Part shown: positions 4,116-27,219 of the stretch, piece after piece
Layout: every line of letters starts with the position of its first letter
Numbering within the stretch: the stretch's first letter is position 1
IMG/VR virus record: IMGVR_UViG_3300025834_000005
DNA: 64,000 nucleotides
Source of the DNA: a virus
Reading direction: 5' to 3' (one strand)
The notes under the pieces: generated by a model
What the model was told of the DNA's origin: nothing
Database searches by the model: none
What the model saw: the letters and a program-made list of their open reading frames with translations, nothing else
Program-made: the position numbers and the translations under genes

Positions 4116-4976
4116 ATGATTTGTGTATACCATAAAAAAGATAATGATGGTTTCTGTAGTGCCGCAATTATACAGAGAAAATATCCAGATGCTGAATTTA
4201 TTGGCTATGATCATGGCGATGATCATATCAAATTTCTTGACTTTATCGACGAAGAAATCATAGTTGTTGATATTAGTTTCCCTATGAATATCATGTATAA
4301 CATTGCCAGTCGTAATAAGCTAACATGGATAGATCATCACGCATCGAGCATTGATAGTTATAATGTTTTTGATCATTCTACTGATAATAATATTAATGCT
4401 ATTCTTGAGGTGGGTAGAGCCGCTTGCGAATTAACATGGGAATATATTTTTCCTAATGAATTCATGCCTATAGGTATTGAATGCTTGGGAAAATATGATA
4501 CTTGGCGTGGATATGGCTCTGATGAATGGAATCATTACATTCTACCATTTGAATATGGAATGAGATCAATTTGTTCAAGCTTTGAGACATTTCCAAAGTT
4601 TGTCATAGATTACAATGAAGGCGAAGCTATTGATAGCATAATTAATAGTGGTAGAATCATAATTGGCTACCAAAATGTGGTTGACTCAAAACTATGTGTT
4701 TCAAATTCATTTGTTCGTCGTTTTAAAGGTTATAGAGCACTTTGTTTGAATGTTCCTTACATTGACTCGAATACAATGCAAAGTGTTTTCAACGCATCTG
4801 AACACGATTTAATGCTATCATTTACTTTTAAAGGCACACATTGGAGTTGCAGCCTTAGAAGTCAAGGTGATTTAGATGTCAGTGCTATTGCCAAATCAAT
4901 GGGCGGTGGTGGGCACAAAAACGCATCGGGCATGGAATTAACAACAGCCCAATTAGTAGAATTATTTAAATTGTGA
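4116..4976 (+). CDS. DHH/DHHA1 family phosphoesterase (NrnA/RecJ-like)
   Basis: Motifs HKKDNDG (DxD), VVDISF, WIDHHASS (DHH) and GGGGHKNASG (DHHA1 GGGH). Confidence 0.75.
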   Translation: MICVYHKKDNDGFCSAAIIQRKYPDAEFIGYDHGDDHIKFLDFIDEEIIVVDISFPMNIMYNIASRNKLTWIDHHASSIDSYNVFDHSTDNNINAILEVGRAACELTWEYIFPNEFMPIGIECLGKYDTWRGYGSDEWNHYILPFEYGMRSICSSFETFPKFVIDYNEGEAIDSIINSGRIIIGYQNVVDSKLCVSNSFVRRFKGYRALCLNVPYIDSNTMQSVFNASEHDLMLSFTFKGTHWSCSLRSQGDLDVSAIAKSMGGGGHKNASGMELTTAQLVELFKL

Positions 4977-25067: not shown

Positions 25068-26501
25068 ATGAGTAAATTGAACCCTATTTTAAAAAGTGGC
25101 GTTTCTGATTTAAAATCAGATGAAAGACTTGCTGGTGGATTTGGAACCAGAGCAGCTAAACAAGACGAATTAGCTCTATTACGTAGAGTTGTTTTAGCGA
25201 ACCTATTATGGGAAAACATTGCGTATGCTAACGGTGAAGATGTTTCAACACAGATCAGCCAGTTGATTCCGCAATGTAATCCTCAAGATGTTGCTGATCT
25301 TGCTGTTGAGGCGAGACTTGAGCAGAAATTGCGTCATACTCCTTTGTTTATTTGTGTTGAAATGCTGAAACACGTTGGATATTCTGCGTTGGTTGCCGAT
25401 ATCTTACCAAAGATTATCACAAGAGCAGACATGATTACAGACTTTCTTGCTATCTACAAGAAACAGAATGGCGGTAAGCTAAAGCCTTTGGCTGCTGCTG
25501 CTAAGAAAGGTTTGGCGAAAGCATTCGATAACTTTAACGAATACCAATTCGCTAAATATGACAGGGATGCCGAGATCAAGTTAAGGGATGCTATGTTTTT
25601 AGCTCACCCAAAACCATCTTCACAGGAAAAGATTGAACTTTACAAGAAAGTTGCTGATCGTACTTTGAAAACTCCTGATACATGGGAAGTTGCTTTATCG
25701 ACAGGTAAAGATAAGAAAGCCACATGGGAGAGATTGATCGATGAAAAGAAAATCGGTGGTTTGGCAATGTTGCGCAATGTACGTAATATGGTTCAGTCGG
25801 GTGTTAACTCGAATAGCATTAGAAAGGGATTGAAAAATCTAAATAGTTCGATGTTATTGCCTTTCAATTTCTTAACAGCCTCAAGGTTTGCACCTGAGTA
25901 TTCGAGAGATATTGAGGATGCTATGGTTGAGTCTTATAAGAATCTTCCTAAATTATCTGGAAAGACATTATTCATTGTCGATATTTCAGGCTCAATGGGT
26001 GCTAAATTATCTGACAAGTCGGGAATGTCCAGAATGGATGCTGCTTGTGCAATGGCTATGCTTGCGATTAATCAATGTGAAAACTATGAAATCGTAGCAA
26101 CTGCTGGGAATGATGGTTCGCATAAAGGTGCTCATAAGCATATTCTAAATCCAAAAAAGGGATTCGATGTGTTCAAGCAAATTCAAAGTGCTGGAAGTGA
26201 AATCGGCTGTGGTGGTATTTTCACCAGACAGTGTATCGAATGGTGTAAAGCCAACGTATCTGATACATTCGACAGAATTATCATATTCTCTGACTCACAG
26301 GATTGCGATCTTATGAATGCGAGAATTCCAGCACCTTACGGCAAATATAACTATATTTGCGACGTATCGTCAAATGAGAGAGGCGTTAACTTTAGGAATG
26401 TATGGGATGCCGAAATTACAGGTATGTCTGAAAACTTCCTAACATATATCGCTGCAAACGAAGGTCTAACAAATAAATTTGACGACCAGAGTGAAAATTA
26501 A
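25068..26501 (+). CDS. rsr: Ro60-like TROVE domain + vWA domain protein (Rsr-like)
   Basis: LLRRVVLANLLWENIAYANGED...RLEQKLRHTPLFICVEM and GGLAMLRNVRNM fit the TROVE pattern (compare Ro60 ..LLRNLGKM). C-terminal MIDAS FIVDISGSMG ... IIIFSDSQD. Confidence 0.8.
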   Translation: MSKLNPILKSGVSDLKSDERLAGGFGTRAAKQDELALLRRVVLANLLWENIAYANGEDVSTQISQLIPQCNPQDVADLAVEARLEQKLRHTPLFICVEMLKHVGYSALVADILPKIITRADMITDFLAIYKKQNGGKLKPLAAAAKKGLAKAFDNFNEYQFAKYDRDAEIKLRDAMFLAHPKPSSQEKIELYKKVADRTLKTPDTWEVALSTGKDKKATWERLIDEKKIGGLAMLRNVRNMVQSGVNSNSIRKGLKNLNSSMLLPFNFLTASRFAPEYSRDIEDAMVESYKNLPKLSGKTLFIVDISGSMGAKLSDKSGMSRMDAACAMAMLAINQCENYEIVATAGNDGSHKGAHKHILNPKKGFDVFKQIQSAGSEIGCGGIFTRQCIEWCKANVSDTFDRIIIFSDSQDCDLMNARIPAPYGKYNYICDVSSNERGVNFRNVWDAEITGMSENFLTYIAANEGLTNKFDDQSEN

Positions 26502-26504
26502 TCA

Positions 26505-26554
26505 ACAAAGGTACTATTTATACTTGCAAATTAAATATTAAATAGTACCTTTGT
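26505..26554 (+). other. long perfect hairpin after the TROVE stop (attenuator or processing site; no T run)
   Basis: ACAAAGGTACTATTTA / TAAATAGTACCTTTGT 16-bp stem, 18-nt loop. Confidence 0.5.
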
Positions 26555-26562
26555 AAAAATAT

Positions 26563-26634
26563 TAAGTAATAGCGTTCGGTAAGGGTTACTTCCTCCATAA
26601 ATGAAATCACACCCTACCATCAGTTCTTTGCTTA
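26563..26634 (+). ncRNA. Y-RNA-like stem-loop RNA 1 (conserved module + anticodon-arm-like apex)
   Basis: Ends pair TAAGTAA-t-AG / CT-TTGCTTA; internal loop cgttc/atcagtt; helix GGTAaGGGT/ACCCTACC; apex ACTTC-10nt-GAAAT. Confidence 0.6.
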
Positions 26635-26642
26635 CAAAAATT

Positions 26643-26712
26643 TAGATAATGGCGTTCGATACGGTTACTTCCTTTTACGAAATATTCACCGTATTATCTT
26701 TTTCCTTATCTA
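26643..26712 (+). ncRNA. Y-RNA-like stem-loop RNA 2 (conserved module + tRNA-Lys(UUU)-like anticodon arm)
   Basis: TAGATAA-t-GG / CC-TTATCTA; loop cgttc/atcttttt; helix GATACGG/CCGTATT; apex ACTTC-CTTTTAC-GAAAT. Confidence 0.65.
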
Positions 26713-26719
26713 TTTATAT

Positions 26720-26785
26720 CGGAGTGTGTCTTGGCTTGTAATGCAGTATACGGTATTATATGAGGATCGTCCCCTCGCACACCGA
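26720..26785 (+). ncRNA. degenerate tRNA-like element (acceptor-like pairing + T-arm-like hairpin, no canonical D/anticodon arms)
   Basis: CGGAGTG/CACACCG (one A-A mismatch); TGAGG-ATCGTCC-CCTCG keeps G53, T55, C56, C61 equivalents; only 34 nt between. Confidence 0.3.
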
Positions 26786-26788
26786 CAA

Positions 26789-26900
26789 ATGAATAATGGC
26801 GTTAGAAACAGTTTCATCAACTCAATCTCAATAATTAAGATCAACTCAATCTCAATAATTAAGTAAATACAAAACTCTGTCTCTCATTTTCCTTATTCAT
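26789..26900 (+). ncRNA. Y-RNA-like stem-loop RNA 3 (conserved module, long apex with 24-bp tandem duplication)
   Basis: ATGAATAA-t-GG / CC-TTATTCAT; loop cgtta/tcatttt; helix GAAACAG/CTGTCTC (one A-C mismatch). Confidence 0.6.
26816..26863 (+). repeat. perfect 24-bp tandem duplication
   Basis: atcaactcaatctcaataattaag occurs twice, inside the apex of RNA 3. Confidence 0.9.
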
Positions 26901-26909
26901 CTATATTAT

Positions 26910-27033
26910 AGGGCGTTAGCTCAGTTGGTAGAGCGCGAAATTCTCTTTTACACCTTTTCCCTTTATTGTGGCGTTCGTAAAAGTTACTTCATTCTTAATG
27001 ACGAGGTCGGTGGTTCGAGTCCATCATGCCCTA
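26910..27033 (+). tRNA. tRNA-Lys(CUU)-like gene with a 51-nt insertion between D arm and anticodon arm
   Basis: Acceptor AGGGCGT/ATGCCCT; U8; D arm GCTC-AGTTGGTA-GAGC; insertion 26936-26986; anticodon arm CTTCA-TTCTTAA-TGACG (one U-C mismatch); AGGTC; T arm GGTGG-TTCGAGT-CCATC. Confidence 0.6.
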
Positions 27034-27035
27034 CG

Positions 27036-27120
27036 AAAAACAATAGTGTTCGAGACAGTTTCATCAAAAAAATCGAAATTTTTATACAAAAAACTCTGTC
27101 TTAACTGTTCTTTGTTTTTT
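27036..27120 (+). ncRNA. Y-RNA-like stem-loop RNA 4 (conserved module; apex related to RNA 3)
   Basis: AAACAA-t-AG / CT-TTGTTT; loop tgttc/aactgtt; helix GAGACAG/CTGTCTT; apex TTTCATCAA...ATACAAAAAACT. Confidence 0.6.
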
Positions 27121-27128
27121 TTGAATAT

Positions 27129-27165
27129 AAAAGGTCAACATACTCAAAATATGTTGACCTTTTTT
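27129..27165 (+). terminator. rho-independent terminator closing the TROVE/RNA unit
   Basis: AAAAGGTCAACATA / TATGTTGACCTTTT 14-bp stem, 7-nt loop, T run. Confidence 0.8.
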
Positions 27166-27193
27166 GTAACCTTTTTTATCGAGTTACGTATAA
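27164..27193 (+). promoter_or_regulatory. ECF-type promoter copy TTGTAAC-N16-CGTATAA
   Basis: -35 at 27164-27170, -10 at 27187-27193. Confidence 0.6.
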
Positions 27194-27219
27194 TATAGAA
27201 ACAATTTAAATTTATTGAA

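What the first reader, a model, noticed from the sequence alone, without database searches (positions are those of the whole stretch)
26643..26712. Y-like RNAs 1 and 2 present a tRNA-Lys anticodon-arm look-alike at their apex
In RNA2 the apex is ACTTC-CTTTTAC-GAAAT. That is a 5-bp stem with one C-A mismatch at the second pair and a 7-nt loop. The loop reads C32-U33-UUU-A37-C38, which is the loop layout of tRNA-Lys(UUU). RNA1 (26563-26634) has the same ACTTC/GAAAT stem with a 10-nt loop. Both share the junction G-TTACTTC with the anticodon arm of the neighbouring tRNA-Lys(CUU)-like gene (GTAAAAG-TTA-CTTCA-TTCTTAA-TGACG). They therefore look like module plus anticodon arm mini-versions of it. 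Established knowledge: tRNA-Lys anticodon loops are a recurrent target of bacterial anti-phage nucleases (PrrC, and the PARIS effector). Phages respond with repair enzymes or replacement tRNAs. Inference (speculative): these RNAs could act as decoys or competitive substrates for an anticodon nuclease. Alternatively they could tether a Lys-anticodon mimic to the Ro-like protein.
Basis: inference. Interest (0 to 1): 0.7.

Follow-up and report, generated by a model that had tools for sequence, protein, structure and literature searches.

The report
Phage Y RNAs with anticodon-arm-like tips
Two small RNAs encoded just after a crAss-like phage's Ro60 gene belong to a previously undescribed phage Y-RNA family derived from tRNA; one does end in an anticodon-arm-sized hairpin, but its "lysine" loop is not conserved, so the anti-nuclease decoy idea remains untested.

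Summary
RNA2 (26642-26713) has ACUUC-CUUUUAC-GAAAU at 26667-26683, and RNA1 (26562-26636) has the same two strands around a 10-nt loop.

Both RNAs are real members of a Y-RNA-like family. The family is encoded next to Ro60 (TROVE plus vWA) genes of crAss-like phages. A covariance model built only from other phages finds exactly four hits in the 64-kb window, all in 26562-27120 on the + strand.

ACUUC is not specific to a lysine mimic. It is part of a junction motif, UUAC(U/A)UC, shared by the whole family. In tRNA-like relatives this motif leads into a true anticodon arm. The neighbouring gene (26910-27033) is one of these: a complete tRNA cloverleaf with the Ro module inserted between nucleotides 26 and 27.

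Anticodon-arm-like hairpins are significantly enriched across the family, so "module plus anticodon arm" is a fair description of RNA2. It does not fit RNA1.

The hairpin in RNA2 has no stability on its own, shows no covariation and is absent from the consensus fold. Its loop differs in the closest relatives (CACUUAA, CUUGAAA, AAAUCUG). The neighbouring cloverleaf reads Lys(CUU) here but Arg(CCU) in the 86% relative. Lysine identity is therefore not conserved, and the decoy function is untested.

The parts
25068..26501 (+). Ro60 orthologue gene (TROVE plus Ro60-type vWA), 477 aa
   Evidence: Pfam TROVE E 1.6e-16; vWA_Ro60 22.9 bits, below its 27.7-bit cut-off. About 65% nucleotide identity to the TROVE genes of crAss001-type phages.
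26505..26554 (+). Long conserved hairpin between the Ro60 stop codon and RNA1. A Bacteroides -7-box-like TAcCTTTG lies at 26542-26549.
   Evidence: Read directly. The same hairpin is in L005 and a covarying version is in L084. Function not tested.
26562..26636 (+). Y-like RNA1: outer stem, UAGCGUUCG, inner stem GGUAAGGG/ACCCUACC, UUACUUC, then an unstructured apex of about 24 nt
   Evidence: Model R1 hit, 32.5 bits, E 9e-5. The inner stem covaries with L005 and L084. The MFE leaves the apex open.
26642..26713 (+). Y-like RNA2 (the finding): outer stem 26643-49/26706-12, GG/CC 26651-52/26704-05, CGUUC 26653-57, inner stem 26658-64/26689-95
   Evidence: Model R1 hit, 30.9 bits, E 2e-4. MFE -12.3 kcal/mol, z -2.1. 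Consensus fold of 4 relatives.
26665..26671 (+). Family junction motif UUACUUC.
   Evidence: T26, T27, C29, T31 and C32 are invariant and A28 nearly invariant in alignment A2 of 24 RNAs from other phages. The motif is clustered after the TROVE gene in most loci.
26672..26683 (+). 7-nt loop CUUUUAC plus 3' strand GAAAU
   Evidence: Not conserved: L005 has ACACUUAAUG-GAAAA, L084 ACUU-GAAAU (or CUUGAAA in the other register), L121 AAAUCUG-GAAAA.
26724..26790 (+). Extra small structured RNA with an acceptor-like stem and a T-arm-like hairpin. Not a member of the R1 family.
   Evidence: Consensus fold with L005 has 17 pairs, 2 of them compensatory. No Rfam, ARAGORN or R1 hit.
26789..26901 (+). Y-like RNA3, with a perfect 24-nt tandem duplication in its apex (26816-26863)
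   Evidence: R1 hit, 23.5 bits, E 0.009. TRF period 24, 2.0 copies, 100% matches.
26910..27033 (+). tRNA/Y chimera: a complete cloverleaf (anticodon arm CUUCA-UUCUUAA-UGACG at 26987-27003) with a capped Ro module (26936-26986) inserted between nucleotides 26 and 27
   Evidence: Rfam tRNA 42.6 bits with a 64-nt insertion. ARAGORN finds nothing until the module is excised, then calls tRNA-Lys(CUU). The 5' half of the module matches RNA2 at 20 of 27 positions.
27036..27120 (+). Y-like RNA5
   Evidence: R1 hit, 62.2 bits, E 1.9e-11.
27126..27166 (+). GC-containing hairpin followed by a T run; probable terminator of the RNA array
   Evidence: Read directly. The simple terminator scan did not list it.

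Best explanation
RNA2, and RNA1 beside it, are short Ro60-binding Y RNAs of a crAss-phage family. They compare to Salmonella YrlB as their tRNA-like neighbours compare to YrlA.

Shown: each RNA has two covarying helices. These flank a bulged site (5' U-R-G-Y-G..., 3' ...UUC-Y) that resembles the bacterial Rsr-binding motif GNCG(AA). After them comes the junction motif UUAC(U/A)UC.

Shown: in the family this junction opens onto a tRNA-derived effector domain. That domain ranges from a whole cloverleaf, through a single hairpin the size of an anticodon arm, to an open loop. In the window, 26910-27033 has the whole cloverleaf, RNA2 has the hairpin, and RNA1 has the open loop.

Inferred: the phage Ro60 is an early gene in crAss001. 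It binds the bulged helix, and the set of Y RNAs presents different tRNA-like pieces to host tRNA-binding or RNA-decay factors, acting as tethers or gates as in known Ro-Y RNPs.

Inferred: the Lys(UUU)-like reading of the RNA2 loop is one state of a fast-changing loop, not a conserved specificity.
For: - The gene upstream is TROVE plus Ro60-type vWA.
- Model R1 was built without the window or its close relatives. It finds only RNA5, RNA1, RNA2 and RNA3 in 64 kb, all on the + strand. It finds 98 hits in 77 related loci, all on the TROVE strand.
- Helix covariation in A2: 87% of cells paired against 56% in shuffles; covariation score 0.78 against 0.23; 14 of 15 pairs have compensatory changes; slid controls give 37-52% paired.
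- A relative, L074 2262-2370, matches Rfam YrlA at 35.7 bits, E 1e-5.
- The GNCGAA Rsr motif, YrlB, and the tether and gate roles are described in PMC4201824 and 10.1101/312249. Phage Ro60 binding phage Yrl RNAs and host PNPase is in PMC12135203.
- The crAss001 TROVE gene is expressed 0-10 min after infection (PMC8375218).
- Anticodon-arm geometry is enriched in tRNA-like members and in short members.
- Excising the Ro module turns 26910-27033 into a callable tRNA.
Against: - No expression or Ro-binding data exist for these RNAs.
- The window RNAs do not hit Rfam YrlA or Y_RNA even at E up to 10.
- The 5' motif is GGCGUUCG or UAGUG, not the canonical GNCGAA.
- The apical helix of RNA2 is unsupported by thermodynamics, covariation or consensus folding. 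The claim that the apex is an effector element, rather than a spacer, therefore rests on family-level statistics only.
- An alternative homology exists. RNA2's CGAAAU(A)UUC matches the linker after G26 of the cloverleaf gene, not the 3' strand of its anticodon arm.
Confidence: 0.6

Rival explanations
1. The apices of RNA1 and RNA2 mimic the tRNA-Lys anticodon arm. They act as decoys or competitive substrates for host anticodon nucleases (PrrC or PARIS type), or they tether a Lys-anticodon mimic to Ro.
For: - The RNA2 loop is C-U-UUU-A-C and the neighbouring cloverleaf reads CUU.
- Anticodon-arm-like hairpins are enriched in the family.
- In the crAss001-lineage RNA 'Y-b', the loop CU-NNN-AA is invariant except for the central triplet, which is the main variable spot of the RNA: UUU, UCU, CCU, UCC and CCA; UUC in L076.
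- A UUU/UCU and CUU/CCU (Lys/Arg) polymorphism recurs in three RNA types.
- tRNA-Lys is an established nuclease target (PMC2610378, PMC11455837).
Against: - The loop sequence is not conserved in the closest relatives.
- RNA1 has 8-10-nt loops.
- The stem is 4 bp plus a C.A mismatch with about zero stability.
- Family triplets are diverse, with no Lys preference: 1 UUU among 20.
- No nuclease, modification or cleavage data exist.
- Transitions at structurally free loop positions could explain the triplet variation.
Confidence: 0.12
2. The apex is only a spacer left by descent. The array grew by duplication and deletion of a tRNA/Y chimera. RNA2's hairpin-sized loop and its Lys-like reading are neutral remnants, and only the Ro module is functional.
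For: - The RNA2 apex changes length and sequence between 80-86% relatives.
- The isolated apex folds at about 0 kcal/mol.
- The pairing test is not significant.
- RNA3 carries a fresh 24-nt duplication in its apex.
- The arm is replaced by a 3-nt-loop hairpin in crAss001 but by a 7-nt loop in cr112_1.
Against: - Canonical 7-nt YU...A loops are strongly enriched in short members from many lineages.
- The Y-b hairpin stem covaries while C32, U33, A37 and A38 stay invariant.
- The loop CUUGAAA/U recurs in L084, L094, L024 and L023.
Confidence: 0.25
3. These are not RNAs at all. The repeated modules are DNA-level signals, such as repeated protein-binding sites or promoters.
For: The conserved motif is repeated 5 times in 0.5 kb, and there is no expression evidence.
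Against: - Compensatory changes in two helices.
- Strict strand specificity: 98 of 98 hits on the TROVE strand.
- tRNA-like D and T arms in sibling elements.
Confidence: 0.03

Closest known systems
YrlA, the bacterial and phage tRNA-like Y RNA (Rfam RF02553; PMC4201824; 10.1101/312249)
   Same: - Encoded beside a Ro60/TROVE gene on the same strand.
- The terminal stem carries a GNCG-type Ro site.
- Sibling RNAs have D, T and acceptor arms.
- A relative, L074, hits RF02553 at 35.7 bits.
   Different: - The window RNAs give no RF02553 hit.
- RNA1 and RNA2 lack the tRNA body.
- The family has its own junction motif, UUACUUC.
- Its tRNA-like members keep a full anticodon arm. In the 26910-27033 type they are not circularly permuted: the acceptor stem is open and the Ro module is an extra capped arm between nucleotides 26 and 27. 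In YrlA the Ro stem replaces the anticodon loop.
YrlB of Salmonella and Yrl1/Yrl2 of Thermus phage phiLo: short Y RNAs without a tRNA domain (PMC4201824, PMC12135203)
   Same: Short (about 70 nt), with a terminal stem, a bulged Ro site and a small apex. Several are encoded per Ro locus, and there are phage-encoded examples.
   Different: No detectable sequence relation. The 'CGAA' motif is replaced by GGCGUUCG or UAGUG. The apex carries the UUACUUC junction and, in RNA2, a hairpin the size of an anticodon arm.
Deinococcus radiodurans Yrn1, modelled with a potential 'anticodon arm' (PMC4201824)
   Same: A Y RNA for which a 5-bp stem-loop in anticodon-arm position has been proposed.
   Different: Yrn1's loop is 6 nt and the RNA is unrelated in sequence. 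No anticodon-like U33/A37 signature was reported there.
tRNA-Lys anticodon stem-loop as a substrate of PrrC, RloC and PARIS (PMC2610378, PMC11455837)
   Same: A 7-nt loop C-U-U-U-U-A-N on a 5-position stem.
   Different: The stem has a C.A mismatch and three A-U pairs. There is no tRNA body. The modifications mnm5s2U34 and t6A37 cannot be assumed. The loop is not conserved among relatives.

Membership tests
Y RNA / Y RNA-like (Ro60-associated ncRNA) | Encoded adjacent to a Ro60 (TROVE) gene | tested here: met
   The TROVE plus vWA_Ro60 gene ends at 26501 and RNA1 and RNA2 start 61 and 141 nt downstream on the same strand. The same arrangement is seen in 77 related loci.
Y RNA / Y RNA-like (Ro60-associated ncRNA) | The 5' and 3' ends pair into a long stem interrupted by a bulged or internal-loop region | tested here: met
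   Two helices with 14 of 15 pairs showing compensatory changes; 87% paired against 56% in shuffles. The MFE and consensus folds agree.
Y RNA / Y RNA-like (Ro60-associated ncRNA) | Conserved Ro-binding motif on the 5' strand (GGUCCGA in animals, GNCGAA(N)G in bacteria) | tested here: inconclusive
   The window RNAs have U(G/A)G(C/U)GUU(C/A)G. The family consensus is UAGUG with invariant G-U-G. It shares GNCG or RGYG with the bacterial motif, but not the AA.
Y RNA / Y RNA-like (Ro60-associated ncRNA) | Bound by Ro60 in vivo or in vitro | not testable with these tools
   Needs RIP or EMSA.
Rfam YrlA (RF02553) | Score at or above the family's gathering threshold (69 bits) | tested here: not met
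   No hit in the window at E up to 10. The best relative, L074, reaches 35.7 bits.
tRNA anticodon-arm mimic | 5-bp stem closing a 7-nt loop with U33 and purine 37 | tested here: inconclusive
   RNA2 has 4 pairs plus a C.A mismatch and the loop CUUUUAC, and its apex alone folds at 0 kcal/mol. RNA1 has a 10-nt loop, so the feature is not met there.
tRNA anticodon-arm mimic | Geometry and loop signature conserved in orthologues | tested here: inconclusive
   A 7-nt loop is possible in L005 (CACUUAA, with A33) and L084 (CUUGAAA), but not in L121 (AAAUCUG, no U33 or A37). RNAalifold predicts no apical helix. Family-level enrichment is significant.
tRNA-Lys-specific mimic or anticodon-nuclease decoy | Lys triplet (UUU or CUU) conserved | tested here: not met
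   The RNA2 group has UUU, CUU, UGA and none. The cloverleaf gene is CUU here and CCU in L005. Family triplets are diverse.
tRNA-Lys-specific mimic or anticodon-nuclease decoy | Cleaved or bound by an anticodon nuclease | not testable with these tools
   Needs cleavage assays or cyclic-phosphate RNA-seq.

The most novel reading that the evidence does not exclude
crAss-like phages use an early-expressed Ro60 RNP to display exchangeable anticodon stem-loops. In crAss001-type phages one Y RNA has an invariant CU-NNN-AA loop whose triplet is the RNA's main variable spot. The neighbouring Y RNAs are whole tRNAs carrying a Ro-binding arm. These RNAs would serve as baits or decoys for host anticodon nucleases or other tRNA-directed defence factors, with Ro (plus a host exonuclease) sequestering or disposing of them. 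That would be a Ro-based anti-defence system in the most abundant gut phages.
Probability: 0.12. Interest if true: 0.85.

Novelty: new variant of a known kind. Interest (0 to 1): 0.45.

Why it matters
What the tRNA-like domain of bacterial and phage Y RNAs is for remains an open question. I found no paper describing Y RNAs in crAss-like phages; their TROVE gene is only annotated as a possible RNP component.

This locus shows a graded series in one array: a full tRNA carrying a Ro-binding arm, an RNA with only an anticodon-arm-sized hairpin, and an RNA with the bare Ro module. crAss001 can be cultured on Bacteroides intestinalis, so the partner of the tRNA-like part can be sought by experiment. 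If the anticodon-like loops are functional, they link Ro RNPs to the conflict between phages and tRNA-targeting defences.

Tried and rejected
- Rfam at gathering and at E up to 10 gave no Y-RNA family hit in the window, only tRNA with a 64-nt insertion.
- ARAGORN on the window found 0 genes.
- I first read ACUUC/GAAA as a family-wide helix, with ACAUC/GAUA as covariation. The raw counts looked suggestive, but the controlled shuffle test was not significant: 12 of 36 against 8.6 +/- 2.4. I dropped it as an established helix.
- I first concluded that loop length was unconstrained at 4, 7 and 10 nt. That was revised after finding 7-nt loops in an adjacent register in L005 and L084.
- RNAalifold on the RNA1 and RNA2 orthologues predicted no apical helix.
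- Pattern scans of IMG/VR for more close relatives added only L121.
- The genome-contig scan returned only MAG contigs, which I judged phage-like without testing them, so it gave no bacterial Rsr context.
- Pfam on nine neighbouring ORFs found no RNA-repair enzyme next to the locus. The rest of the window was not scanned.
- The sigma-70 promoter and terminator scan was uninformative for a Bacteroides phage.

Full report
**1. What is at the coordinates**

The window is from a crAss-like phage. The ORF at 25068-26501 is about 65% identical in DNA to the TROVE genes of crAss001, cr112_1, cr106_1 and the PhiCrAssBcn phages. It carries Pfam TROVE (E 1.6e-16) and a sub-threshold Ro60-type vWA domain.

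The 0.7 kb downstream (26502-27219) has no credible ORF. It contains five copies of a module, 5'-U(G/A)G(C/U)GUU(C/A)G - stem - UU(A/U)C(U/A)UC.

- RNA2: ACTTC 26667-71, CTTTTAC 26672-78, GAAAT 26679-83.
- RNA1: ACTTC 26588-92, a 10-nt loop, GAAAT 26603-07.
- The tRNA-like gene: GTAAAAG-TTA-CTTCA-TTCTTAA-TGACG at 26977-27003.

**2. RNA1 and RNA2 are members of an RNA family tied to phage Ro60 genes**

- crAss001, cr112_1, cr106_1 and PhiCrAssBcn4 all have an unannotated gap of 0.5-0.9 kb after the TROVE gene, and it holds the same kind of modules.
- I collected 78 IMG/VR loci and 36 metagenome loci.
- I aligned 24 short RNAs from phages other than the window and its close relatives (A2). G13, T14, G15 (of UAGUG), T26, T27, C29, T31 and C32 (of UUACUUC) and T78 are invariant; A28 is nearly invariant.
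- The two helices I annotated covary strongly. 87.3% of cells are paired against 55.8% in shuffles. The covariation score is 0.784 against 0.231 (0 of 500 shuffles reach it). 14 of 15 pairs have double changes. Slid controls give 37-52% paired.
- The covariance model R1 built from A2 finds exactly four hits in the 64-kb window, all on the + strand: 27036-27120 (62.2 bits), 26562-26636 (32.5), 26642-26713 (30.9) and 26789-26901 (23.5).
- In 77 related loci R1 gives 98 hits, all on the strand of the TROVE gene and next to it.
- Rfam has no match for the window RNAs. A more distant relative, L074 2262-2370, matches Rfam YrlA at 35.7 bits, E 1e-5, below the 69-bit threshold.
- The 5' motif RGYG resembles the first half of the bacterial Rsr-binding motif GNCGAA (PMC4201824).

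These are therefore Y-RNA-like genes. RNA1 and RNA2 are the short kind, comparable to YrlB.

**3. What ACUUC really is**

UUAC(U/A)UC follows the inner stem in essentially every member. Five of the ten GTTWCWTC sites on the + strand of the window are in this array.

What follows the motif differs by type:
- YrlA-like topology (L115, L114, L057, L098, L121). The order is UUAC, then a 5-bp/7-nt hairpin, AGGUC, T arm, closed acceptor, D arm, G26, a linker, and the inner stem 3' strand.
- Native-order cloverleaf with a capped Ro module inserted between nucleotides 26 and 27. This is window 26910-27033 and its relatives.
- A whole cloverleaf joined through its acceptor stem (the L024 type).
- Short apices (RNA1, RNA2, and the crAss001 'Y-b' RNA).

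For the window gene, removing 26936-26986 in silico turns an ARAGORN-negative sequence into tRNA-Lys(CUU). The L005 orthologue becomes tRNA-Arg(CCU), and crAss001's becomes tRNA-Cys(GCA).

Among 45 non-redundant tRNA-like members, 20 have a 5-bp stem (at most 1 mismatch), a 7-nt loop and a 4-6-nt variable loop immediately before the T arm (shuffles 8.9 +/- 2.6). Of these, 18 also have U33 and R37 (shuffles 1.6 +/- 1.2, maximum 6).

So in this family the hairpin after UUAC is a genuine anticodon arm. This differs from canonical YrlA, where the Ro stem replaces the anticodon loop (10.1101/312249).

**4. Is the apex of RNA1 and RNA2 an anticodon-arm look-alike?**

At family level, partly yes. In 67 non-redundant short members, hairpins of at least 4 bp with a 7-nt YU...A loop occur in 11 (shuffles 1.4 +/- 1.2, maximum 6). 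Loop length 7 is over-represented, 33 against 14.4 expected.

For RNA2 itself the evidence is thin:
- RNAalifold leaves the apex open.
- There is no covariation, because both strands are invariant.
- A family-wide test of CWUC/GAW pairing is not significant.
- Loosely defined anticodon-like hairpins occur 5.5-6 times per kb in this AT-rich window. Against that, shuffles of this particular apex give one in only 1.8% of trials, and a Lys-type one in 0.17%.

Comparison with the closest relatives:

| Relative | Relatedness | RNA2 apex |
|---|---|---|
| Window | - | UUACUUC-CUUUUAC-GAAAU |
| L005 = L006 = L083 | 86% Ro60 identity | UUA-CUUCA-CACUUAA-UGGAA |
| L084 | 80% | AUA-CUUCA-CUUGAAA-UGAAA, plus an extra hairpin |
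| L121 | Ro60 not compared | ACUUC-AAAUCUG-GAAAA |

A 7-nt loop with C at its first position and A at its sixth can be drawn in three of the four. The triplet varies (UUU, CUU, UGA), U33 is not kept in L005, and the register shifts.

RNA1 has 10-, 10- and 8-nt loops, and no anticodon-like alternative.

There is also a competing homology. RNA2's CGAAAU(A)UUC matches the linker after G26 of the cloverleaf gene (CGAAAUUCU). In L005 both are GAAAAACA. On that reading, GAAAU may be the junction's 3' strand rather than the 3' strand of an anticodon arm.

**5. Lysine identity and the decoy idea**

Lysine is not conserved at any level:
- in the RNA2 group (section 4);
- in the cloverleaf gene, Lys CUU against Arg CCU;
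- across the family, where the triplets include GGU, UGU, GUU, UGG, GUA, CCU, UUU, AUU, GAU and others.

Two observations keep a generic anticodon-loop function alive:
- In crAss001-type phages the short RNA 'Y-b' has AUAAU-CU[NNN]AA-AUUAU. Among 14 distinct sequences of one length class, almost all variation inside the RNA falls on the three central loop positions (UUU, UCU, CCU, UCC, CCA). C32, U33, A37 and A38 are invariant. The stem covaries in other classes.
- A UUU/UCU or CUU/CCU polymorphism recurs in three RNA types.

This could reflect selection on the triplet, or simply transitions at the only structurally free positions of a U-turn loop. I cannot tell which.

PrrC (tRNA-Lys) and PARIS are established anticodon-targeting defences (PMC2610378, PMC11455837). 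Nothing here connects them to Bacteroides or to these RNAs.

**6. Most likely mechanism**

- Shown: RNA1 and RNA2 are structured RNAs of a Ro60-linked family. They have two covarying helices, a conserved bulged site and a conserved junction.
- Inferred from established Ro biology (PMC4201824, 10.1101/312249, PMC12135203): the phage Ro60 binds the bulged helix, and the apical module contacts a second factor or gates Ro. The crAss001 orthologue of this gene is expressed 0-10 min after infection (PMC8375218).
- Inferred from the graded series in this array: the apical modules are tRNA-derived, and the partner is probably a tRNA-recognising or RNA-decay factor.
- RNA2 presents at most a weak hairpin the size of an anticodon arm. 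RNA1 presents an open loop.
- I put 0.6 on this, 0.25 on the apex being a neutral spacer, 0.12 on the anticodon-nuclease decoy, and 0.03 on these being DNA-level signals rather than RNAs.

**7. Novelty**

Y RNAs next to Ro60 are known in bacteria and some phages: mycobacteriophages, CcrColossus, phage G and phiLo (PMC4201824, PMC12135203). I found no description of them in Crassvirales, where the TROVE gene is only noted as a possible RNP component.

Three features make this a new variant of a known kind:
- the UUACUUC junction;
- retention of a complete anticodon arm;
- the native-order tRNA carrying a Ro-binding arm at position 26/27.

The specific claim of the finding, a Lys look-alike in RNA1 and RNA2, is the weakest part of the picture.

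Noticed in passing
window 26910-27033 (Ro module 26936-26986): This is a complete tRNA cloverleaf with a capped Ro-binding module inserted between nucleotides 26 and 27. ARAGORN calls tRNA-Lys(CUU) only after the module is excised in silico. The L005 orthologue becomes tRNA-Arg(CCU) and crAss001's becomes tRNA-Cys(GCA). None of these genes is annotated in the public records I looked at.
   Followed up: partly
L001 4386-4466 (crAss001) and its orthologues in about 35 loci: The short Y-like RNA 'Y-b' has the hairpin AUAAU-CU[NNN]AA-AUUAU. The central triplet (UUU, UCU, CCU, UCC, CCA, UUC) is the main variable spot of an otherwise nearly invariant RNA. The stem covaries in other length classes.
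   Followed up: partly
L024 4442, L026 4442, L046 4446, L023 4443, L034 4443: In this Y-RNA type a whole cloverleaf is joined to the Ro module through its acceptor stem (ACUUCAU/AUGAGAU, again with a C.A mismatch). Its anticodon loop is CUUUUAA in some phages and CUUCUAA in others.
   Followed up: no
window 26724-26790: An additional small structured RNA lies between RNA2 and RNA3. It has an acceptor-like stem UCGGAGUGUG/CGCACACCGA and a T-arm-like hairpin GAGG-AUCGUCC-CCUC. It is conserved in L005 with 2 compensatory pairs and gets no Rfam, ARAGORN or R1 hit.
   Followed up: partly
window 26816-26863: There is a perfect 24-nt tandem duplication (ATCAACTCAATCTCAATAATTAAG, two copies) inside the apex of RNA3. 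It is absent from L005, so it looks like a recent event in a labile apex.
   Followed up: partly
window 26505-26554: A long hairpin sits between the Ro60 stop codon and RNA1. It is conserved in L005 and covaries in L084. Its 3' arm contains TAcCTTTG (26542-26549), which resembles a Bacteroides -7 promoter box just upstream of RNA1.
   Followed up: no
window 26678-26688 versus 26935-26944; L005 4621-4632 versus 4857-4866 (approximate): The 3' part of the RNA2 apex (CGAAAUAUUCA) matches the linker after G26 of the cloverleaf gene (CGAAAUUCU). In L005 both are GAAAAACA. The two junction strands therefore change together between phages.
   Followed up: partly
L084 2364, L094 1339, L024 4721, L023 4724: The 7-nt loop CUUGAAA/U, closed by the motif's own UCAA or UUCA strand, recurs in short Y-like RNAs of four lineages with 60-80% Ro60 identity. 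This loop is conserved, unlike the variable triplet of Y-b.
   Followed up: no
L122-L130 (GTDB MAG contigs): Ro60 genes 56-64% identical to the window's occur on contigs binned into MAGs labelled Nitrososphaerota, Bacilli, Clostridia, Melainabacteria and Spirochaetia. These are probably crAss-like phage contigs mis-binned into the MAGs; I did not test this.
   Followed up: no
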